A stretch of 64,000 nt of DNA from Promethearchaeota archaeon (GTDB lineage Archaea > Asgardarchaeota > Lokiarchaeia > Sigyniarchaeales > SOKP01), in contig JAHLWP010000003.1 of assembly GCA_019057865.1 (NCBI GenBank), forward strand, positions 96,001 to 160,000, read 5' to 3'. The notes beneath the pieces were generated by a model. It was given only the letters and a program-made list of their open reading frames with translations, made no database searches and was not told where the DNA came from. Position numbers and translations under genes: made by a program. Position 1 is the first letter of the stretch. Each line of letters opens with the position of its first letter. Below, piece after piece: positions 2,892 through 18,496 of the stretch.

Positions 2892-3845
2892 ATGATAAAA
2901 ATGAGAAGAATTCTTGTAATTGGTTCATGTGGTCAAATTGGCAGTGAATTAGTACCCGCACTTAGAGAGAAATATGGAAATGATAATATAATAGCTACGG
3001 GACGTCGCACACCTCCGCCAAAAGAACTCAAGGAAGGTGGACCATTTATCTATTTAGACGCATTAGAAATAGATGCCCTTAAAAGAGTTTTCTATGAATA
3101 TGAGATAGATACAATCTTTCATATGGCCTCAATTCTTTCAGCCACAGGAGAAAAAATACCTCAAACTGCTTGGGATATAAACATGAATGGATTAATTAAT
3201 ATTCTCGAAACAAGTAGAAATTATAAAATAAAAAATATAATTTGGCCAAGTTCAATTGCAGCATTTGGACCTACTACTCCAAGAGATAATACACCAAATA
3301 TTACTATATTACAGCCCACAACTATGTATGGGATAACTAAAGTTGCTGGGGAGCTCTTAGCAGAATATTATTACAAAAAATATGGGCTTGATACTCGTTC
3401 AATGAGGTTACCTGGTATAATTAGTAGTGAGACACTTCCCAGTGGAGGTACAACCGATTATGCTGTTGAGATTTTTTATGAAGCCATTAAGAAAAAGCAA
3501 TATAGTTGTTTTTTAAAAGAAGATACAGTCTTACCTATGATGTATATGCCAGACTGCCTTAAATGTATGATTGATCTCTTAGAAGCAGAAGCTTCAAAGT
3601 TAAAACGTCGAGTATATAATGTTACAGGGATGAGTTTCTCAGCAGGTGAATTAGCGTTTGAAATAAAAAGGCATATTCCTGAATTTAAAATAGAATATAA
3701 ACCTGATTTTAGACAAGAAATTGCGGATTCCTGGCCAAAATCAATTAATGATTCCCTAGCCCGTGAAGAATGGGGTTGGAATCCTAGTTTTAATCTTGCA
3801 TCAATGACGAAGGATATGATTGAGAAATTAAGTAGAAGAATGTAA
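2892..3845 (+). CDS. tdh: L-threonine 3-dehydrogenase, extended SDR type
   Basis: GSCGQIG, LSATGE, PSSIAAFG, YGITK, GGTTDYAV, LPMMYMPD and IADSWP motifs; adjacent to kbl. Confidence 0.85.
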   Translation: MIKMRRILVIGSCGQIGSELVPALREKYGNDNIIATGRRTPPPKELKEGGPFIYLDALEIDALKRVFYEYEIDTIFHMASILSATGEKIPQTAWDINMNGLINILETSRNYKIKNIIWPSSIAAFGPTTPRDNTPNITILQPTTMYGITKVAGELLAEYYYKKYGLDTRSMRLPGIISSETLPSGGTTDYAVEIFYEAIKKKQYSCFLKEDTVLPMMYMPDCLKCMIDLLEAEASKLKRRVYNVTGMSFSAGELAFEIKRHIPEFKIEYKPDFRQEIADSWPKSINDSLAREEWGWNPSFNLASMTKDMIEKLSRRM

Positions 3846-8268: not shown

Positions 8269-8811
8269 TTAATTTTTTTTTTCTTTCCATTCTTCATTCA
8301 ATATACCCATAATGATTAGATCATGGTATTCTCCATTAATAAAATGTGCTTTTCTTTTTCGACCTTCTTCTATGAAACCTACTTTTTTATATAATTTTAT
8401 GGCAGGGATATTAAAATCATAAACACTTAACTGGAGCCTATTAAGATTTAGAGTATTAAAACCATAATTAATTAATAATTCCATCGCTTCTGTACCATAA
8501 CCTTTACTTTGTTCTGATTTTTCCCCGATCATTATACCGCATTCTCCCACTCTATTTTTCCAATCGATCTTGTGGATTCCGCAATTTCCTATGAGTTTTT
8601 CTGTTTTATCATTTAATGGAATGAGAATAGAGAAAAGAATGTCATTCTCTCTCTCTTTTAATGATTCAAACCATTCTTCTTCCATTTCTTTAGTCATAGG
8701 TCTAAATACTAGTAAGTATTGAGTTATTTCTGGATCATTTATCCATTTAAGAAAGGTATCTATGTATTCTCTTCTAGGTGGAGCAAGAATAACTTTTTTT
8801 CCTTTCAACAT
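8269..8811 (-). CDS. GNAT N-acetyltransferase, RimJ/RimL/SpeG-like
   Basis: GECGIMIGEK..QSKGYGTEAM, LNLNRLQLSV..FN..AIKLYKKVGF.EEG. Confidence 0.88.
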   Translation of the reverse strand: MLKGKKVILAPPRREYIDTFLKWINDPEITQYLLVFRPMTKEMEEEWFESLKERENDILFSILIPLNDKTEKLIGNCGIHKIDWKNRVGECGIMIGEKSEQSKGYGTEAMELLINYGFNTLNLNRLQLSVYDFNIPAIKLYKKVGFIEEGRKRKAHFINGEYHDLIIMGILNEEWKEKKN

Positions 8812-8887: not shown

Positions 8888-11788
8888 TTAAAAGGAAATT
8901 TTATATTTGCGTGCTACATATTTTACAATCTCAAAAGTTATAATACATATTAGCGAAATCAAGAAACAAACCATCCAATCAAGAGCAGTTAAATACATAA
9001 ACATAAAATTAATTCCAGCTCTTGCTAATGCAACCTGCGCATTAGGGATGTACATTAACATAAGAAATACAGAAAATAAGAAGCCAATTATCAGGTACAT
9101 TCGCTTATTGCTATCTTCTTTTAAACTTCTAAAAAGTGATTTGTTTGGACGTCTTATCTGAAACACTAAAAATGACTCACAGAAAAATAAAGTCACCATT
9201 AACATGGTTAAAGTCTTGGCCATTGTTCTAATTTCATCTAGTGTATAATCAGAAAGCAATTCATCTGGAATCAATTCATTTGATGAATAAAGAAATAATT
9301 CACCTAACTCCCAATTTTCAGGAAAAACAGGCCAAGTTTCGCTTATTGTTATAAAATATACTATAACCATGCTTGTTACAAGTAAAATTCCAAATATAAA
9401 GAGTAGTATTAACACATTTTTAGATAGAATTTCTTCTGAATCACGTGGTTCTTCTTTCATAACATCTTCCGAGGTACTATCAAAAGCAAGTATTAATCCA
9501 GGAAACATATGAAGAGTAATTGATAAGAAAATCCATTGAAGGTAAAAAGCCTCATCTAAAAAATATGGTAAGTCTAAAATTATTGCTAAAATAAATTGAA
9601 CGATCCCTTCAAAAATATTAATACAAATATAAAAGAATACAAGTGCTCGAATCCTGGCAAAGATACCTCTACCTTGATGGATACCTGTGACAATCGAGTT
9701 AAATGAATCATCTGAAATCACCATATCGGAAGCTTCTTTAGCTACATCCGTTCCTGTTATACCCATAGCTACACCTGCATCTGCCATATTTAGGGCTAGA
9801 GCATCATTTACCCCATCACCCGTCATAGCAACTACTTTTTTTGCATCCTGATATCTTTCAATAATGTCTTCTTTATGTTCTGGTGATACTCTTGCAAATG
9901 CTTTAATCTTATTAAAATCAAAGAAAGTTTTTACATCTTTTATCTGGTTCCCTTCAAGGACGATTTCACTTTCTTCAATTATGATACCGATTTGTGAAGC
10001 TATAGCTCTTGCTGTTGGTGGTGAATCACCTGTAATCATTACAACATCTACTCCTGCTTCATGACAGAGTGTCACTGATTCTTTTACACCTTCCCTAGGA
10101 GGATCTAATATTGTCACAAATCCAATATAGATCATTTCTGATTCACATTGATCCCTGCTTCCTTCTCCTTCTGGAGGTAATTCCTCTAGCTTCTTATAAG
10201 CTAAGCTTAAAATTCGATATCCTTGATTTGCATAAAGATTTGCTATCTCCATTATTTTAGCTTTTATTTCATCAATAAATTTCACTTCATTGTTATTGTA
10301 TAAAATTGTAGAACATAAAGGGATTAATATCTCACTAGCACCTTTAGTAAATGAGTACAATTTGTCTTCTCTTTTGTAAATCTTCGTCATACGCTTTAAA
10401 GCAGAATCAAAGGGAAATTCTGTGACTGATTCAAAATCATCAAGAAGATAATCACCCATACCTTTTTGAAATAAAACCATTAAGGCTCCTTCTGTTGGAG
10501 ATCCCACCACATTCCAATTATAGACGATTTTCTTAGGAGTTTCAATTTCATTTTTTATGAGGGCAGAATTGTTATTTAAAAATCCAGAAATTAAAAGAAG
10601 TTTTAATTGAGGATAATCATCAATATGGCGTATGTAATCAGGATTTTTCGGATCATCCATTAAAATTATATCCCCATCTGGAGAATAACCACTTCCAGTT
10701 ACTCTATATAACGAACCATTTGTCCAAACATGTTGAATCGCCATTTGATTTTTGGTCAATGTACCAGTTTTATCTGAACACACAACACTAACACGACCTA
10801 AGCTGTCAACCGAAGCCAGATTTCTTATTATAACTCCATGTCTTGCCATTGCTAAAACACCCGTAATTAAAACAATAGTAACTAGTAATGGGATGTTCAA
10901 TGGCATCAAGTCAAGAGCAGAGTTCAAACTTTTAACTACTTCAGGATCTTCAGTAAATCTTGTGGCTGCCCATATGATCATCAATGAAATAAACCAGAAC
11001 ATAAATATGATTAGACCTAACCATTTGCCAAAGTGGTTCAATTTTTGACGAATAGGGATTTCTGACGTTCCAGCTTCCTCCAAACCGTGTGAAATTTTAC
11101 CAATTTCAGTATCTCCACCAGTTTTTACAGTAATTGCTGTACCATTTCCCATTGTTATATATGTCCCGAAAAAAACCATGTTTTTACGGTCACTTATAGG
11201 AATATCATTTTTGCCTAATGCATCTCCTTTCCTTAATTTTTTAACTGGTTCTGATTCACCTGTAAGTGATGCCTCATTAACTTCCAGATTAAAAGATTCT
11301 GCAATTCTAGCATCAGCAGGTATTTTATCTCCTTGGTTTAAGACTAGTAAATCTCCTATCACAATTTCTTTTGTAGGAATATCTTGTTTCTGACTGTCTC
11401 TAATAATAGTTGCGGTAGGAGCAGATAATTCTCTTAATGCTTTTAATTTTTTTGTGGCCCTATATTGCTGAATTATAGCAACCATACAATTAAGAAAAAC
11501 AATACCTAAAGTCAAAGCTATAAAAAGTAGGCTTCCTTCTTCTCCAAAAACACTTGCTAAAAATAATATAAGAGCTCCGATTAAGTAAATTACGATTAAC
11601 CAGTTAAATAGAGGTGCTAAGTATATTTTAATAAATCCTTTTGATACTTTTGGTATTTCATTAGGACCATATTTCTCTAGCCGCTTGTTAGCTTCAGTTG
11701 TTGTTAAACCTTTATTAGGATCAGTCTGAATTTTTTGATAAATTTGTTCTAGCGCAAGATTATAAAAATTTTCTTCTACTTTTTCCAT
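8888..11788 (-). CDS. P-type ATPase on a P2A/SERCA-like scaffold with non-canonical ion-binding site (copy A)
   Basis: LTGES, CSDKTGT, KGA, DPPR, TGD and GDGVND motifs with about 10 TM helices. TM4 reads DLMPLNIP instead of AIPEGLP. Confidence 0.92.
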   Translation of the reverse strand: MEKVEENFYNLALEQIYQKIQTDPNKGLTTTEANKRLEKYGPNEIPKVSKGFIKIYLAPLFNWLIVIYLIGALILFLASVFGEEGSLLFIALTLGIVFLNCMVAIIQQYRATKKLKALRELSAPTATIIRDSQKQDIPTKEIVIGDLLVLNQGDKIPADARIAESFNLEVNEASLTGESEPVKKLRKGDALGKNDIPISDRKNMVFFGTYITMGNGTAITVKTGGDTEIGKISHGLEEAGTSEIPIRQKLNHFGKWLGLIIFMFWFISLMIIWAATRFTEDPEVVKSLNSALDLMPLNIPLLVTIVLITGVLAMARHGVIIRNLASVDSLGRVSVVCSDKTGTLTKNQMAIQHVWTNGSLYRVTGSGYSPDGDIILMDDPKNPDYIRHIDDYPQLKLLLISGFLNNNSALIKNEIETPKKIVYNWNVVGSPTEGALMVLFQKGMGDYLLDDFESVTEFPFDSALKRMTKIYKREDKLYSFTKGASEILIPLCSTILYNNNEVKFIDEIKAKIMEIANLYANQGYRILSLAYKKLEELPPEGEGSRDQCESEMIYIGFVTILDPPREGVKESVTLCHEAGVDVVMITGDSPPTARAIASQIGIIIEESEIVLEGNQIKDVKTFFDFNKIKAFARVSPEHKEDIIERYQDAKKVVAMTGDGVNDALALNMADAGVAMGITGTDVAKEASDMVISDDSFNSIVTGIHQGRGIFARIRALVFFYICINIFEGIVQFILAIILDLPYFLDEAFYLQWIFLSITLHMFPGLILAFDSTSEDVMKEEPRDSEEILSKNVLILLFIFGILLVTSMVIVYFITISETWPVFPENWELGELFLYSSNELIPDELLSDYTLDEIRTMAKTLTMLMVTLFFCESFLVFQIRRPNKSLFRSLKEDSNKRMYLIIGFLFSVFLMLMYIPNAQVALARAGINFMFMYLTALDWMVCFLISLICIITFEIVKYVARKYKISF

Positions 11789-11955
11789 ATTAATTCTGCC
11801 ATACGTTTGAATAAGATTAAAAGAAATTTCTCTAAATTTTTCTTTTTAGATCTAATAAATAGACAATAACAATTATGATTTTTAATTTATTCCTTTTTTT
11901 ATAAAAATCAATTGGAGTATTATTTAAGAATTAATCTTGAGATATATGAATCAAA

Positions 11956-12762
11956 TTAATCGCTAGGTTTTTTTTTCCTTATTCTTTTTAAAATTTTTCC
12001 CCAGTCAACATATACTAATAAGAACATTATTATAATAGTAGTTGCCCAAACTAATGAACTTGTTAAAATATCTAAAGGAGTACTAGGGGGTATATTCCCA
12101 GATTGAGCTGCCTCAAGATCAATTCCAAATAAGTTGAATAAAAAATCACCTAATGGAGTATCTGCATACCAAATGGGAAGGGCACTACATAGAGAGCAGA
12201 GTACAAATTTACCGATAAAAGTATATATTAAAGTTTTAACAAGACTATATTCTACAATTCCTAATACGATTAAAAAAGCATCATCAGGTAGGGGGGTTGC
12301 AGCAAATATAAATATTATTAATGGAGCCCACCCTTTCTCAACATATCCTTTCATCCGTTCAATACTTTCAACATCCCCTATCATTTCTTGTGAACCACGC
12401 CCAATTAGCCATGCTGTAGTTTCTCCTATACCAGCTCCTAATCCTCCAATAAGACCCAATAATAAGGGATTTACTCCAGGGATTACGGCGGAAACTACAA
12501 TCAGGGCGATTACATATGGAACTGGAAAAATAATTGTGAAATTACCAAAAATACTTATAGCAAAGACCCCAATATAGATTCCAACATCTCCAAATTCCTC
12601 ATAAAACCACATAATTGTATCTGCGAGCCATTGACCAAAGTTAATATTAGCAAATGCTAAAACTATAAATAATAATATTATTCCACTGATAAAGAGGAGA
12701 CCCCCATATTTTCTAAGAAAAGATTTTTTCTCTTCTTGAATAATTGGAGATTTTTCAGCCAT
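11956..12762 (-). CDS. VTT/DedA-domain membrane protein (VMP1/TMEM41/Tvp38 superfamily), putative lipid scramblase
   Basis: FPVPY, GGLGAGIGETTAWLIGRG and FAATPLPDD...G...Y...GK motifs resemble the DedA/VMP1 re-entrant helix signatures. Confidence 0.8.
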   Translation of the reverse strand: MAEKSPIIQEEKKSFLRKYGGLLFISGIILLFIVLAFANINFGQWLADTIMWFYEEFGDVGIYIGVFAISIFGNFTIIFPVPYVIALIVVSAVIPGVNPLLLGLIGGLGAGIGETTAWLIGRGSQEMIGDVESIERMKGYVEKGWAPLIIFIFAATPLPDDAFLIVLGIVEYSLVKTLIYTFIGKFVLCSLCSALPIWYADTPLGDFLFNLFGIDLEAAQSGNIPPSTPLDILTSSLVWATTIIIMFLLVYVDWGKILKRIRKKKPSD

Positions 12763-12810
12763 AATATTCTCTTTTTAAATATTAATTATCAATTTAATGA
12801 AATAATTGTA

Positions 12811-15681
12811 TTAAAAATTTATATTCTTATTTCTAGCAAAATATTTCACTACTTCTATTCCAACTATTCCTGGAAGGGCAAATAACACACAAACTAACCA
12901 GTCTAAGCCACTTAAGAACATAAAGTTTATTTGAAAATTAAGGCCACTTACATCATTGATATAATAGTTTACTTGATAAGAAAAACAGATATGAAGAATA
13001 CGAAATCCTAAAGTGAATAAACAGACAATTAAAACAGCTATGCTTAATTCTTCTTTTAAAGTTTTAATAATTGATTTGTTCGGTCTCCTAAAAGACCATA
13101 TAAAGTTAATTTCTGCAATATATAAAGTTGTTATAAACATAGTTCTTGCTTTTTGAGCTAACCATTCTTCTGAATCAAGTGCTAAATAACTTAAATTAGA
13201 ATTTAAATTCCATTCATTTAATGGAATCAATCCATTGATCGTTAATTGAAGAACTAAGACTAAACCTATTCCCATTAGAAATGCTTGAATTAGCAACAGT
13301 TTCCACATATTTTTATTTAAAAGTTCTTCTTCATCTCTGGGTGGATCTTGCATAATATCTTTAGGATATGTATCGATAACTAATGCTAAAGATGGTAGTG
13401 CATGCACAATTCCAAAGATATAAATATGTTGCCATTCAGAACTAAAAAGTTCGAAAAATGGAATAAATTCATAGGTAAAGAAAATAAAAGCTTCCATAAT
13501 ATTTAGACAAATAAAGAAATAAATAATTGTCCGGATTTTAGCAAATAAACCACGTCCAATTTGTATACCCTTAACAATTGACGTAAAATTATCATCAGAA
13601 ATTACCATATCGGAGGCTTCTTTAGCTAAATCAGTTCCAGTTATACCCATTGCTATACCAGCTTGAGCTTTCTTCAATGCTGGTGAATCATTGATTCCAT
13701 CTCCTGTCATTGCTACTATTTTATTTTGTTTTTGGTAATTTTCTACGATTATTTCTTTATCAGTTGGTTCCACCCTCGCGAAAACAGATACTTTGTTGAA
13801 ATCTTCTAAACTTAGTTCTTCGATCTCCCAGCCCTTAATTACTATATCCCCTTCTTTATAAATACTCATTTGGGTAGCTATAGTTTTTGCAGTTGCGGGG
13901 TGATCTCCTGTTACCATAGCTACTTTTATCCTTCCTGATTGACATTGTTCAATTGATTCTTTAACTCCAACTCGAGGTGGATCTAATATGGATAAAAAGC
14001 TTAAGAAAATTAAATCTTTCTCAATAAAATCTCTTTCTTGATAATTATTATTTTGCAATTCTTTATATGCTATAGCTAAGGTTCTATAACCTTCAATTGC
14101 ACGTAATTCTATTTCATGTAAAATCTCATTTTTTAAATCATTATTAAAAGCTTGAATCTTACCATTAAATTCAATTTTGGAGCAGAGAGCAATTAATTTT
14201 TCAGGAGCACCTTTCGAAAAAGCATATAATGTGTTATTACTATGATTAGATTTACAAACTGTAGTCATTCTCTTTAAATCAGAGTCAAATGAAAATTCTT
14301 TTAAAACTTCATATTTCTTTTTAATATCATAGGTGTTATATCCTGCTACTTCAGCCAAAACCAATAAAGAAGCTTCTGTAGGAGACCCTAACGCTTTTCG
14401 AACTGCTACTTCTCTCAAGTTCTTAACTCGCACTTTAACATCCTCATATATTAAATTTGCATTATTATTAAGAACAATCGAATCAATAAACTTTTGAAAA
14501 GTTAAATTATCATTTAAATCAGTTTTAATCTCATCTTTTAAAATTTCCCCTTCAGCGTCATATCCTGAGCCTGTAACATCATATTCTATATTATTTAACC
14601 AAAATTTCTTAACTGTCATCTCATTTTTAGTGATAGTACCTGTTTTATCGGAACAAATTACAGATACGCGACCGAGAGATTCAATAGCAGATAAATTTTT
14701 TATGATTACTCCACTCTGAGCTATTTCAAGTACGCCAGTTATTAAAACTAACGTTGACAATAATGGTAAATTAAATGGTACTACATTAATAGATCTTAAT
14801 ATGGAACTTACTAGTGCTTCACCAATGTTATTTTCATTAAGATCTCTTTGTATAGCTAAAAAAGTGAATTTATATATTATCAATATAAATAAAATAAAAA
14901 TAGCAATAGATCCTAAGATATATCCCAATCTATTTAACTTTCTAGTTAGAGGGATATCTTCAATACTTCCCATTTCATTTAATTGAACTGAAATTTTACC
15001 TATTTCTGTATTAACACCAGCTCCTGTTACTAATGCTTTACATCTACCTGTATTAGCATACGTTCCCATAAAAACCATATTAATTTGTTCTTGGACAGGT
15101 AAATCTTTTTTTTGTAAGAAAGAGTTGATTTTTTCAACAGGCTCTGATTCTCCGGAGAGACTAGCTTCATTAACAGTAAAATTCATGAGTTCAACTATTC
15201 TCGCATCAGCAGGAACTTTATCACCTTGCTCTAATAAAATAATATCGCCAGGAACTAGTTCTCTGGTAGGAATTTCGAATTGCTTACCATCTCTTAGAAC
15301 CGTCGCCTTTAAAGCAGCAATTTTTTTTAAAGATTCTAATGCTTTCTGTGCTCTAAATTGCTGTATTACAATTGTTATAGAGTTGATAAAAACAACAATG
15401 AAAATTATTGAAGCAGAACCAGGAGATCCCAGAATAGAAATAAAAATTCCAGAAATTATTAAAATAACAATTAAGAAATTAAAAATTGGAGATAAATATA
15501 TTTTCCATAATGATTTTTTTATTTTTGGAAGTTCATTATATCCAAATTTAAAGTATCTCTCTTTTAATTCTATAGAATTTAAACCATAGTCAAGGTTTGT
15601 ATTAAATTTACTAATTAAATCCTTAATAGATTGATAATAATATTTTTTATCAGAAGAATTAGTAAATTTATCTTGGGACAT
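12811..15681 (-). CDS. P-type ATPase on a P2A/SERCA-like scaffold with non-canonical ion-binding site (copy B)
   Basis: LSGES, CSDKTGT, KGAPE, DPPR, TGD and GDGIND motifs. TM4 reads NVVPFNLP. Paralog of 8888..11788. Confidence 0.92.
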   Translation of the reverse strand: MSQDKFTNSSDKKYYYQSIKDLISKFNTNLDYGLNSIELKERYFKFGYNELPKIKKSLWKIYLSPIFNFLIVILIISGIFISILGSPGSASIIFIVVFINSITIVIQQFRAQKALESLKKIAALKATVLRDGKQFEIPTRELVPGDIILLEQGDKVPADARIVELMNFTVNEASLSGESEPVEKINSFLQKKDLPVQEQINMVFMGTYANTGRCKALVTGAGVNTEIGKISVQLNEMGSIEDIPLTRKLNRLGYILGSIAIFILFILIIYKFTFLAIQRDLNENNIGEALVSSILRSINVVPFNLPLLSTLVLITGVLEIAQSGVIIKNLSAIESLGRVSVICSDKTGTITKNEMTVKKFWLNNIEYDVTGSGYDAEGEILKDEIKTDLNDNLTFQKFIDSIVLNNNANLIYEDVKVRVKNLREVAVRKALGSPTEASLLVLAEVAGYNTYDIKKKYEVLKEFSFDSDLKRMTTVCKSNHSNNTLYAFSKGAPEKLIALCSKIEFNGKIQAFNNDLKNEILHEIELRAIEGYRTLAIAYKELQNNNYQERDFIEKDLIFLSFLSILDPPRVGVKESIEQCQSGRIKVAMVTGDHPATAKTIATQMSIYKEGDIVIKGWEIEELSLEDFNKVSVFARVEPTDKEIIVENYQKQNKIVAMTGDGINDSPALKKAQAGIAMGITGTDLAKEASDMVISDDNFTSIVKGIQIGRGLFAKIRTIIYFFICLNIMEAFIFFTYEFIPFFELFSSEWQHIYIFGIVHALPSLALVIDTYPKDIMQDPPRDEEELLNKNMWKLLLIQAFLMGIGLVLVLQLTINGLIPLNEWNLNSNLSYLALDSEEWLAQKARTMFITTLYIAEINFIWSFRRPNKSIIKTLKEELSIAVLIVCLFTLGFRILHICFSYQVNYYINDVSGLNFQINFMFLSGLDWLVCVLFALPGIVGIEVVKYFARNKNINF

Positions 15682-15817: not shown

Positions 15818-16774
15818 TTATTTTCGAGGATCTCCTAAAATATCTACTAAAAGATGATATTTTTTTCTTATCGTTGTACTCGAAAATTTGGTTGTTTCTT
15901 CAATAAGACTTTGAGTAAAAATTTTCCGTTCTTTATCTAAAGTTTGACCAATATAATAAATCAATCCTGCAGTGAAGGCTTTATAATTTAAATTTTTTAA
16001 ATGATCATAAGAGATATTTATGAGATACTCATCTACCATTAGCATCATGTCTAGTTTTAATTTATTAAACTGTTCTTCTGTTTTGATTTGATCAGAAACT
16101 TTCTCAAAGGCAATTACATTTAAACCTTTTTGAAATACAATTTTTATTTTGTTTTTAATGTCTTTTTCGATATCTGAAACGTTCTTATACTTTTTATTTA
16201 ACATTTTCTCAGTTCGCTTCACTTTTAGCATAGCATTATTCAGCATTTTCTTATTTACCTTATGACCTAACTCCCTTGAAGCTTTAATAAATGATTCAAT
16301 TCGAATATTAGTTGTATCTTTAATTTCCATCCAAACAATAGCTAAAAAAATAATTACCATATTCTGATATGTATGTCTATGATATTTATTGTATTTCAGA
16401 TACCTATCCTTAACAGTTTGGTATTTAATTGAATCTATATTCAATCCAATTCCATAACTCTTAAGAAGATCAATTGTTTTTTTTTGTTCAGTAAAATCAG
16501 ATTCATAATCACGAAACCATTTCTCAAGTGTTTTTATTCGTTCATATTTTTCTTTGATGATGGGATCTTGGAGTGCCTTGGAATCACTAATTCTAATTCT
16601 CCTTTCATAATCTCTCTGTGAATCAGAATCACTAACATATAGATTATCTTCGAATATTACATTTTCATCTAAGATTAGACCACAATCTTGGCAAACATAA
16701 AATCCTGCATCTTTCTTAATGTTTTTATGTTGACAACTTGAGATTTCCGGATTATTTTCTTTCCTATTTTTCAA
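15818..16774 (-). CDS. Divergent TFB/TFIIB-like protein (Zn ribbon plus cyclin-fold repeats)
   Basis: N-terminal CQH...VCQDCGLIL zinc ribbon. C-terminal AGLIYYI...TQSLI..TTKFSSTTIRKKY matches the second TFB repeat and HTH. Confidence 0.7.
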   Translation of the reverse strand: MKNRKENNPEISSCQHKNIKKDAGFYVCQDCGLILDENVIFEDNLYVSDSDSQRDYERRIRISDSKALQDPIIKEKYERIKTLEKWFRDYESDFTEQKKTIDLLKSYGIGLNIDSIKYQTVKDRYLKYNKYHRHTYQNMVIIFLAIVWMEIKDTTNIRIESFIKASRELGHKVNKKMLNNAMLKVKRTEKMLNKKYKNVSDIEKDIKNKIKIVFQKGLNVIAFEKVSDQIKTEEQFNKLKLDMMLMVDEYLINISYDHLKNLNYKAFTAGLIYYIGQTLDKERKIFTQSLIEETTKFSSTTIRKKYHLLVDILGDPRK

Positions 16775-17569: not shown

Positions 17570-18496
17570 TCAGATTAGCTTATTTTTTATTTGTTTCGCA
17601 CGGGAGCGCAACGTTACTTCGGTAATTTTTGCAATGTCCGCTACAAGAGATTGGGTTTTTCTAATCAAACCATCCTTTGCTGCGATATAGATACAAGCTG
17701 CTGCTAAACCTTTAGGATCCTTACCAGTTCTTTTTAATCCATTTCTAGAAGCCATTCTTAACATATTGATAGCTTTTTTTTGAATCTTTATAGGTAGTTC
17801 TAATTCGTTTCCAAATCGAAATACTAAACTTTCAGCAGTAATTGGCTGATATCTTAGCTTTAGCTCCGGTAAAACTTCACGAATTATCATTGCCAGACTT
17901 CTATGAACCGTTCTTCTTGGTGTTAATGACGCCTCACATACCTCATCTAGTAATCGTGGAAAATCATGCACTCTAATTGCCGCATATAAAGACCCTGCAA
18001 TAAATCCATTAATTGATCTTCCCATAGTTAATTTCTTTCTCGCTACAATACTATATATCTTCCATGCTGTTTCTGCGATATATTCAGGTATGTTAAGCTT
18101 TGAAGTAAGCATTTTTAATTTAGGTTTAGCTTCCCAAAAATTTCTTTCAATACTACTTATGAGTGAATTTTGGATTTTTGATAAACGAGAAAAAAGAGCT
18201 TGTTCTTTTGGTCCTATTGATTTACCTTTCGAATCTGTCTTAGTAGTAGGTAACATTGTCCTTGGACCAAAATCTCTCCATCTAGGCTCAGTTCTACGTC
18301 GATTTTGTATTTCTTCGATAGTATATGCTCTCCTTTCGTTCCCAACAAATGTTCTTTCAAAAATAATTCCGCAATTTAAGCAAACTTTATTTCCATCTCG
18401 GGCTTCAATGCTCGGATTATCACAACATTGAATCTGAGGTAAATTATCTTGATCAATATTTTTATTTCTTATTAAATGACGATAATTGGTATTCAT
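17570..18496 (-). CDS. tfb: Transcription initiation factor IIB (TFB)
   Basis: CC...VCLNCG zinc ribbon, ERN, GRS...AGSLYAAIR...PRLLDEV, GKDPKGLAAACIYIA and TQ..VA..A.ITEVTLR motifs. Confidence 0.92.
   Translation of the reverse strand: MNTNYRHLIRNKNIDQDNLPQIQCCDNPSIEARDGNKVCLNCGIIFERTFVGNERRAYTIEEIQNRRRTEPRWRDFGPRTMLPTTKTDSKGKSIGPKEQALFSRLSKIQNSLISSIERNFWEAKPKLKMLTSKLNIPEYIAETAWKIYSIVARKKLTMGRSINGFIAGSLYAAIRVHDFPRLLDEVCEASLTPRRTVHRSLAMIIREVLPELKLRYQPITAESLVFRFGNELELPIKIQKKAINMLRMASRNGLKRTGKDPKGLAAACIYIAAKDGLIRKTQSLVADIAKITEVTLRSRAKQIKNKLI

What the first reader, a model, noticed from the sequence alone, without database searches (positions are those of the whole stretch)
8888..15681. Two non-canonical P-type ATPases flanking a VMP1/DedA scramblase-like gene: candidate lipid flippase/scramblase module
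Seen: co-oriented order is ATPase B, VTT-domain protein (48 bp gap), ATPase A (167 bp gap). Both pumps keep all cytoplasmic catalytic motifs but lack the TM4 PEGL glutamate (DLMPLNIP at ~10889-10912; NVVPFNLP at ~14764-14787). Known: P4 lipid flippases have a hydrophobic residue at this position and an Asn three residues before the Pro (NxIPISL). VMP1, TMEM41B and DedA proteins are lipid scramblases or flippases. Inference: a lipid-translocation system, possibly an intermediate between P2 ion pumps and eukaryotic P4 flippases. Caveats: the A-domain is TGES/SGES rather than the P4 motif DGET, and no CDC50-like subunit is seen.
Basis: partly seen in the sequence, partly recalled or inferred. Interest (0 to 1): 0.85.

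Follow-up and report, generated by a model that had tools for sequence, protein, structure and literature searches.

The report
Asgard P-type pump pair with DedA
Two intact ATP-driven membrane pumps from an undescribed, mostly Asgard-archaeal branch of the calcium-pump family have lost their calcium site and repeatedly end up beside DedA-type lipid-transport genes; they most likely move a small ion other than calcium, lipid flipping remains a real alternative, and they are not eukaryotic P4 flippases.

Summary
Observation confirmed exactly (B 12811-15681, 48 bp, VTT 11956-12762, 167 bp, A 8888-11788; all minus strand; Lokiarchaeia). A and B (42% identical) are old paralogues of one P2-derived clade found in most Asgard families sampled and in Thermoplasmatota. 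Glu309 is hydrophobic, Asn796 is lost and Asp800 is His (146/146), while the TM5 and TM8 glutamates are kept. P4 shows the opposite pattern in TM5, TM6 and TM8, so P4 membership fails. P4 ancestry is unsupported but not excluded (AU p=0.24). The conserved unit is B-A (34/34 loci); VTT fills the gap in only 11/34, so this is not an obligate module. However, a basal Thermoplasmatota branch sits independently in a glycosyltransferase-ATPase-PF06695 (DedA superfamily)-epimerase cluster (PF06695 in 5/8 loci), and a second Lokiarchaeia genus has a different VTT beside a basal member. Best reading: small non-calcium cation or proton pump serving the envelope (0.45). Rival: convergent lipid or glycolipid translocase (0.33).

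The parts
12811..15681 (-). P-type ATPase B, 956 aa, P2 scaffold with rebuilt transport site
   Evidence: phospho-Asp345 at 14647-14649
11956..12762 (-). DedA/VTT-superfamily membrane protein, 268 aa; variable occupant of the B-A gap
8888..11788 (-). P-type ATPase A, 966 aa, P2 scaffold with rebuilt transport site
   Evidence: phospho-Asp339 at 10772-10774
10889..10912 (-). A TM4 kink: Leu297 at the SERCA Glu309 position, family-typical Asn298, Asp293 at P-3
14764..14787 (-). B TM4 kink: Phe303 at the Glu309 position, Asn304, Asn299 at P-3
9509..9511 (-). A His760, replaces SERCA Asp800 (TM6)
13402..13404 (-). B His760, replaces SERCA Asp800 (TM6)
9608..9619 (-). A TM5 Asn724 and Glu727 (SERCA Asn768, Glu771), retained
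13492..13503 (-). B TM5 Asn727 and Glu730, retained
9176..9178 (-). A TM8 Glu871 (SERCA Glu908), retained
13111..13113 (-). B TM8 Glu857, retained
15818..16774 (-). Context: co-oriented TFIIB-zinc-ribbon protein upstream of B; a more constant neighbour than VTT
8269..8811 (-). Context: co-oriented GNAT acetyltransferase downstream of A, present in many but not all relatives

Best explanation
A and B are active P-type pumps of an undescribed archaeal clade derived from two-site P2 Ca2+ pumps. Shown: the ATP-binding, phosphorylation and dephosphorylation motifs are intact; Ca2+ site II has lost all three side-chain ligands; the acidic residues at the cytoplasmic entry are neutralised (Asp59 to Asn, Glu109 to Gln, SERCA numbering); and site I is rebuilt around Asn768, Glu771, His800 and Glu908. 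Inferred: the E1/E2 cycle moves a small non-Ca2+ cation through that Glu-His-Glu site, either a proton (His at the position of the P3A proton-accepting Asp) or a softer divalent metal such as Mn2+. Also inferred: the pump supports cell-envelope lipid or glycan work, which would explain why DedA genes and a glycosyltransferase are repeatedly found beside it. The VTT gene is a loosely linked envelope gene, not a subunit. A and B are two old paralogues brought together in one Lokiarchaeia family and may differ in substrate or regulation.
For: Catalytic residues are invariant over 42 diverse rows. His is in 146/146, Glu771 in 146/146 and Glu908 in 144/146 family members, against Asp in 56/56 other P2 pumps; the contrast holds after redundancy filtering. 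Profile scores: P2A 422-469 bits, P4 103-125. Sequence and fold are closest to LMCA1, SPCA1 and SERCA. For TM5-10 alone, Z is 17-19 for P2 and 13.7-15.5 for P4. The Asn796 position is usually Tyr or Phe, which would fill the cavity that P4 uses for the headgroup, and the Glu309 position is Phe in B and Trp in Thermoplasmatota, while bulky residues there cripple P4 flipping (10.1101/666321). A canonical PEGL pump coexists in the same genome (G000:C66), so Ca2+ export is covered. Precedents for cation transport without the TM4 Glu: P3A (PMC4937031, PMC10654040) and ERMA (PMC13322241). VTT is dispensable for the pair: the gap holds VTT in 11, a C_GCAxxG protein in 5, a GTPase in 1 and nothing in 17 of 34 loci.
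Against: No transport data exist. Up to seven paralogues per genome, with a P-3 residue that switches between N, D, K, Q, A, S and T by subclade, fit headgroup- or solute-specific pockets better than one small ion. DedA-superfamily neighbours recur in three lineages, and a GT4 glycosyltransferase with an NDP-sugar epimerase flanks the Thermoplasmatota member. Neutralised entry residues do not obviously suit a divalent cation. A few members lack Glu908 or His (L193, L196, P0172).
Confidence: 0.45

Rival explanations
1. The clade is a convergent archaeal lipid translocase. ATP drives movement of a glycolipid, phospholipid or polyprenyl-linked sugar past a hydrophobic TM4 gate, the Glu-His-Glu cluster acts as a built-in or proton counter-charge, and DedA proteins scramble or recycle the carrier in the same pathway. 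The link is functional, not a fixed complex.
For: Ile at the gate position in 112/146, an invariant polar Asn next to it, and P-3 Asn in the B clade. Thermoplasmatota branch: PF06695 directly downstream in 5 of 8 loci, GT4 directly upstream in 6 of 8, epimerase downstream in 7 of 8. PF06695 is a DedA-superfamily member (10.1101/2020.12.18.423352), and DedA proteins flip polyprenyl phosphates in bacteria (10.1101/2022.02.03.479048). A 26%-identical VTT lies beside a basal member in another Lokiarchaeia genus, next to a sugar nucleotidyltransferase (L131). Expected chance adjacency is 0.03-0.18 against 2 seen, P about 0.0004-0.014 (post hoc, ignores clustering of membrane genes). VTT stays at the locus after a change of order in a third genus.
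Against: The P4 phosphate ligand at TM6 (Asn) and the TM5 Lys are absent, and two membrane glutamates are strictly kept, which P4 lost. About 26 of some 29 distinct neighbourhoods outside the window's family show no DedA gene with my profiles. The Thermoplasmatota loci are one event, and 3 of 8 lack PF06695. The neighbouring epimerases are not orthologous between lineages (24% identity). DedA mutants also have pH phenotypes, so the link does not single out lipids.
Confidence: 0.33
2. The pumps move an organic solute or an anion (His as the positive charge), or act as substrate-triggered switches without net transport.
For: Entry-path acids are neutralised and site II is erased; subclade-specific polar residues line the outer half of TM4; P5 pumps show that the fold can take organic cargo (PMC10654040).
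Against: No solute-binding protein or catabolic gene recurs in the neighbourhoods; two conserved glutamates disfavour an anion.
Confidence: 0.17
3. They are still Ca2+ pumps that use a single remodelled site I.
For: Asn768, Glu771 and Glu908 are kept; databases name them Ca2+-transporting ATPases.
Against: Glu309, Asn796, Thr799 and Asp800 are all lost; known one-site Ca2+ pumps keep site II, not site I (established knowledge); canonical pumps coexist; no NCBIfam Ca2+-pump cut-off is reached.
Confidence: 0.05

Closest known systems
P2A Ca2+-ATPases (SERCA, SPCA1/PMR1, Listeria LMCA1)
   Same: Domain layout, TGES, ten-helix fold, best sequence and structure matches; TM5 Asn/Glu, TM8 Glu and the second TM4 Pro retained; basal family members keep the AVAAIP lead-in.
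   Different: Glu309 hydrophobic, Gly310 to Asn, Asn796 and Thr799 lost, Asp800 to His, Asp59 to Asn, Glu109 to Gln; scores far below the curated cut-offs.
P4 lipid flippases (ATP8A1/2, Drs2, Neo1)
   Same: Hydrophobic residue, usually Ile, after the TM4 Pro; Asn at P-3 in the B clade only.
   Different: No DGET, no TM5 Lys, no TM6 Asn; site I glutamates kept; second TM4 Pro kept; no CDC50 found; about 17% identity; P4 sits on a very long branch elsewhere in the best trees.
P3A proton pumps (AHA2, Pma1)
   Same: Hydrophobic residue at the Glu309 position; a titratable residue at the TM6 Asp800 position; invariant TM2 Asn (Asn100, 146/146), which I take from memory to match the AHA2 gate Asn106.
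   Different: TM6 residue is His, not Asp; no TM5 Arg; extra glutamates in TM5 and TM8; lower profile score (348 vs 469 bits).
ERMA/TMEM94 (ER Mg2+ pump, PMC13322241)
   Same: P-type fold whose TM4 kink has no acidic residue; ion reported bound by backbone carbonyls and a TM5 amide.
   Different: ERMA has degenerate catalytic motifs; these pumps have canonical ones. 14-15% identity, Z 15 for TM5-10. Descent not tested.
DedA superfamily (VMP1, TMEM41B, UptA, PF06695)
   Same: The middle gene carries a VTT domain with conserved Pro and Gly motifs.
   Different: Subfamily not established; no activity known; Asgard DedA proteins are already on record (10.1101/2020.12.18.423352, PMC7997004).

Membership tests
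P-type ATPase superfamily | DKTGT phospho-Asp, TGES, GDGxND, nucleotide-binding residues, ten-helix fold | tested here: met
P2A Ca2+-ATPase | TM4 PEGL glutamate (Glu309) | tested here: not met
   Leu297 in A, Phe303 in B; no Glu in 146 members
P2A Ca2+-ATPase | TM6 Asn796, Thr799, Asp800 | tested here: not met
   Ser/Phe, Leu/Val, His
P2A Ca2+-ATPase | TM5 Asn768/Glu771 and TM8 Glu908 | tested here: met
   129, 146 and 144 of 146
P2A Ca2+-ATPase | Curated profile cut-off (TIGR01116, TIGR01522) | tested here: not met
   422-469 bits against 703 and 798
P2 group (descent) | Branches among P2 pumps | tested here: met
   family one clade (97-100), inside P2 at 96 and 92 in the two rooted trees; exact sister unresolved; quick trees only
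P4 flippase | A-domain DGET | tested here: not met
   TGES/SGES
P4 flippase | TM4 PISL with Asn at P-3 | tested here: inconclusive
   hydrophobic gate residue present; third position Asn not Ser; P-3 Asn in B only
P4 flippase | TM5 Lys (ATP8A2 K873) and TM6 Asn (N905; ATP8A1 N882) | tested here: not met
   aligned against 8-16 eukaryotic P4 sequences
P4 flippase | Loss of the acidic ion ligands in TM5, TM6, TM8 | tested here: not met
   Glu727 and Glu871 retained
P4 flippase | TIGR01652 cut-off 431 bits | tested here: not met
   103 and 125 bits; 0 of 61 Asgard genomes over the cut-off
P4 flippase | CDC50 subunit (P4A and P4C only) | tested here: inconclusive
   not found in 61 genomes, but no positive control rang
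P4 flippase | Clade with P4 | tested here: inconclusive
   sister at support 81 in one unrooted tree, apart in two rooted trees; AU p=0.244; 22 of 72 placements not rejected; nesting in the core that holds A and B rejected on membrane columns, p=0.008
P4 flippase | Lipid-stimulated dephosphorylation and flipping | not testable with these tools
   needs purified protein
P3A proton pump | TM6 Asp acceptor and TM5 Arg | tested here: not met
   His at TM6, no TM5 Arg; 331-348 bits against 616
P5 ATPase | PPxLP in TM4, extra N-terminal helices, clade with P5 | tested here: not met
   motif absent; P5A as sister rejected marginally, p=0.045; only P5A sampled
DedA superfamily (middle gene) | VTT/DedA domain | tested here: met
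   PF09335 36.2 bits over cut-off 33.9; atlas neighbours are VTT clusters
VMP1 family (middle gene) | Groups with eukaryotic VMP1 | not tested
   no VMP1 sequence was retrieved
Obligate ATPase-VTT-ATPase module | Conserved three-gene order wherever the pair occurs | tested here: not met
   11 of 34 loci; orthologue in 31 of 135 genomes, about 20 of them adjacent to A or B

The most novel reading that the evidence does not exclude
Archaea evolved their own ATP-driven lipid translocase from a P2 Ca2+ pump, independently of eukaryotic P4 or as a sister of its stem. It works in one pathway with DedA-superfamily scramblases and glycosyltransferases and is expanded across Asgard lineages. This would be the first prokaryotic P-type lipid flippase. 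The narrower claim that it is the ancestor or sister of P4 I put at about 0.07.
Probability: 0.3. Interest if true: 0.9.

Novelty: new variant of a known kind. Interest (0 to 1): 0.62.

Why it matters
Reviews treat P4 and P5 pumps as unique to eukaryotes and their origin as open (PMC10654040), and an Asgard transporter survey lists these genomes' pumps simply as putative Ca2+ ATPases (PMC7997004). Here is a widespread Asgard clade with an intact engine and a transport site unlike any solved pump, with basal members that show the steps from PEGL onward. Whatever its cargo, it extends P-type chemistry (His at the central TM6 position). If the cargo is lipid, it gives a testable model of how an ion pump becomes a flippase and suggests active lipid asymmetry in the closest relatives of eukaryotes. 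I found no paper describing the clade in the library searched, which omits most subscription journals.

Tried and rejected
Complex prediction of A (TM5-10) with the VTT protein gave 'no answer'; it is not used as evidence. No RNA holder was listed for the locus; this says nothing on expression or co-transcription. The promoter/terminator scan was at chance level and is a bacterial model. Literature searches for the clade, for P4 origin in Asgard, and for DedA beside P-type ATPases found no description. Viral-contig scans for P4 and P5 motifs were empty. No P3A, P5B, eukaryotic P2B, KdpB or TMEM94 sequence was in the trees. Rejected: pseudogene or decay (catalytic residues invariant). Rejected: recent tandem duplication (A and B fall in different old subclades). 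Rejected: a general sugar-epimerase association, because the epimerases are not orthologous and the one near the family-f18 members matches the window's gene 2892-3845, which lies beside a glycine C-acetyltransferase-like gene and is probably a threonine dehydrogenase (own knowledge). No solved structure matched the VTT profile. PF06695 was found in only 3 of 61 Asgard genomes, and where checked (G071, G082) far from the pump. Searches were script or input errors.
Full report
Observation. The window lies on a 4.26 Mb, 99.7% complete assembly; close relatives of its genes are mostly labelled Promethearchaeota, i.e. Lokiarchaeia. On the minus strand are ATPase B (12811-15681, 956 aa), a 48 bp gap, a VTT-domain protein (11956-12762, 268 aa), a 167 bp gap and ATPase A (8888-11788, 966 aa). 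A and B are 42% identical. The same genome has a canonical PEGL pump on contig C66 and several P1B pumps.

What the pumps are. Profiles, sequence search and fold search all give a P2 scaffold: P2A models score 422-469 bits and the P4 model 103-125; the best solved relatives are LMCA1, SPCA1 and SERCA. The models are confident (pLDDT 85 and 91), and TM5-10 alone align better with P2 (Z 17-19, rmsd 2.2-3.8) than with P4 (Z 13.7-15.5, rmsd 3.1-3.4). I collected 146 full-length family members and 56 other P2 pumps from Asgard genomes. In the family the Glu309 position is I/L/F/V, the next residue is Asn (144/146), Asn796 and Thr799 are lost, Asp800 is His (146/146), and Glu771 (146/146), Glu908 (144/146) and Asn768 (129/146) remain. 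Asp59 becomes Asn and Glu109 becomes Gln at the cytoplasmic entry. SERCA numbering rests on alignment with SERCA-type sequences retrieved here and on established numbering. So site II is erased and site I is rebuilt around Glu-His-Glu.

Range and history. A profile of TM5-10 gives strong matches (E about 1e-57 to 1e-101) in most Asgard families sampled, with up to seven matches per genome, and only canonical-level or no matches in several others. Members from ten other families were checked residue by residue. Among 1.84 billion representatives, 78 clusters score E<=1e-30, nearly all with the His where that region is present. Named members are Asgard apart from one labelled Korarchaeota and a basal branch in Thermoplasmatota. 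The family is one clade (support 97-100). Its earliest branches keep the P2A-like AVAAIP lead-in but already have the His, and A and B belong to different old subclades. The tandem is therefore a juxtaposition of old paralogues.

Relation to P4. Against eukaryotic P4 sequences pulled from metagenomes, the likeness is confined to TM4. P4 has DGET, a TM5 Lys and a TM6 Asn, and has lost the site I acids; the family has the reverse. In ATP8A1 the lipid phosphate is held by the TM4 backbone amides, the P-3 Asn and the TM6 Asn, and bulky residues at the gate Ile cripple transport (10.1101/666321). B has Phe there, the Thermoplasmatota branch has Trp, and the TM6 Asn is missing throughout. Trees with a P1B outgroup place the family inside P2 and P4 outside, with P5 when present. 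One tree without outgroup joined P4 to the family stem at support 81, and the AU test does not reject that (p=0.244). The test has little power: P4 fits 22 of 72 positions, P2C best and the family stem second; cytoplasmic columns alone rank the stem 15th; nesting P4 in the core that holds A and B is rejected on membrane columns. P4 membership fails. P4 ancestry is unsupported but open.

The VTT gene. B lies upstream of A in all 34 informative loci. The gap holds VTT in 11, a C_GCAxxG_C_C protein in 5, a Rag-like GTPase in 1 and nothing in 17. On the tree of A, VTT needs three changes, for example one gain and repeated loss. The orthologue is in 31 of 135 genomes of the family; about 20 copies adjoin A or B and 9-11 lie elsewhere. 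In a third genus the order is VTT-B-A or VTT-A. Within the genus, genomes with this gene mostly lack a 240-aa VTT paralogue that the others have (1/6 against 24/31; nominal p=0.009, kin not independent), which suggests an interchangeable housekeeping role. The upstream zinc-ribbon gene is a steadier neighbour than VTT. An obligate three-gene module is refuted.

Independent DedA links. The Thermoplasmatota branch lies in a co-oriented cluster: GT4 glycosyltransferase, ATPase, PF06695 protein, NDP-sugar epimerase. Of eight loci, PF06695 follows the pump directly in five, GT4 precedes it in six and the epimerase follows in seven (domain confirmed). PF06695 belongs to the DedA superfamily (10.1101/2020.12.18.423352) and is barely similar to the window's VTT, so this is a separate event. 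In another Lokiarchaeia genus, a VTT only 26% identical to the window's abuts a basal family member tail to tail in one genome and lies four to six genes away in two others, beside a sugar nucleotidyltransferase. With about 30 distinct neighbourhoods, chance gives 0.03-0.18 adjacent DedA genes against two seen outside the window's family. The estimate is post hoc and ignores clustering of membrane genes. Most neighbourhoods have no such gene, and one canonical pump has a VTT 9 kb away (L157).

Mechanism. The engine is shown to be intact by sequence; the cargo is inferred. Strict retention of two buried glutamates and a His where P3A pumps have their proton acceptor (PMC10654040) is most simply read as a small-cation site, for H+ or a soft metal such as Mn2+. 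A TM4 kink without Glu is compatible with cation transport in P3A (PMC4937031) and in ERMA (PMC13322241). I give this 0.45. The paralogue expansion, the subclade-specific P-3 residue (a headgroup determinant in P4) and the repeated DedA and glycosyltransferase context support a convergent lipid or glycolipid translocase, 0.33. Organic or anionic cargo or a switch role gets 0.17, and residual Ca2+ pumping 0.05.

Novelty. I found no published description of the clade. This scan has noted the pump family many times on other DNA, with follow-ups that favoured a small ion; those notes agree with tests I had already run and are not counted as support. Verdict: a new variant of a known kind with substrate unresolved. 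The specific module is looser than proposed, but the lipid idea is better supported than the motif comparison alone would allow. Interest 0.62.

Noticed in passing
L477:4790-11526, L478:4660-11438, L479:6001-11049, L481:3694-10165: Thermoplasmatota cluster GT4 - His-type ATPase - PF06695 - NDP-sugar epimerase (GT4 not called in L479). The PF06695 proteins are 411-433 aa, with a long, non-membrane, repetitive-looking C-terminal tail that no Pfam family covers.
   Followed up: partly
window:15818-16774 and 17570-18496: Two TFIIB-related genes upstream of B: one with a weak zinc-ribbon match and no TFIIB repeat match, one with TFIIB repeats. Both are conserved at this locus across the family; the first may regulate the pump pair.
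   Followed up: partly
L147:9106-11949, L151:1754-4597: A different non-canonical P2 pump with Ser at the Glu309 position (PSGL) but TM6 Asn/Asp intact, next to a canonical pump.
   Followed up: no
P0172, P0153, L193, L196: Family members with further site changes: His to Gln with TM8 Glu to Gln (P0172), TM4 Asn to Met (P0153), TM8 Glu lost (L193, L196).
   Followed up: no
L039:8678-9643; L130:9333-10706: A Rag/Gtr1-like GTPase occupies the B-A gap in one genome; a presenilin-domain protein lies next to or near an A-type pump in two others (L130, L135).
   Followed up: no
L105-L110: A subclade with Lys at P-3 and Asp at P-7 lies downstream of an NDP-sugar dehydratase/epimerase and a cytidylyltransferase-like gene in several genera.
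   Followed up: partly
window:25853-28234: Two adjacent half-size MgtE-domain genes followed by a PhoU/TrkA-C protein: a split MgtE-type divalent cation transporter about 10 kb from the pumps.
   Followed up: no
window:24755-25162: Stand-alone SET-domain protein.
   Followed up: no
L109, L120, L140 (G050); L105, L126, L127 (G055): Two single-contig genomes of 4.32 and 6.04 Mb, sizes that from memory match the cultured Lokiarchaeia (not verified), each carry three family members plus canonical pumps; useful starting points for experiments.
   Followed up: no
L001, L002, L006, L013, L016, L020, L035: Contigs labelled Hodarchaeota, Hermodarchaeota or Thorarchaeota carry the same synteny at 68-90% identity and nest among Promethearchaeota loci; probably mislabelled assemblies.
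   Followed up: partly
L022:10001-13057, L030:9971-13042: ATPase A is about 55 aa longer in two assemblies, apparently by an internal repeat; may be an assembly artefact.
   Followed up: no
G017, G036, G156, G161: Genomes of the same family at 94-99% completeness in which neither A nor B was found, so the pair may be dispensable in some lineages.
   Followed up: no
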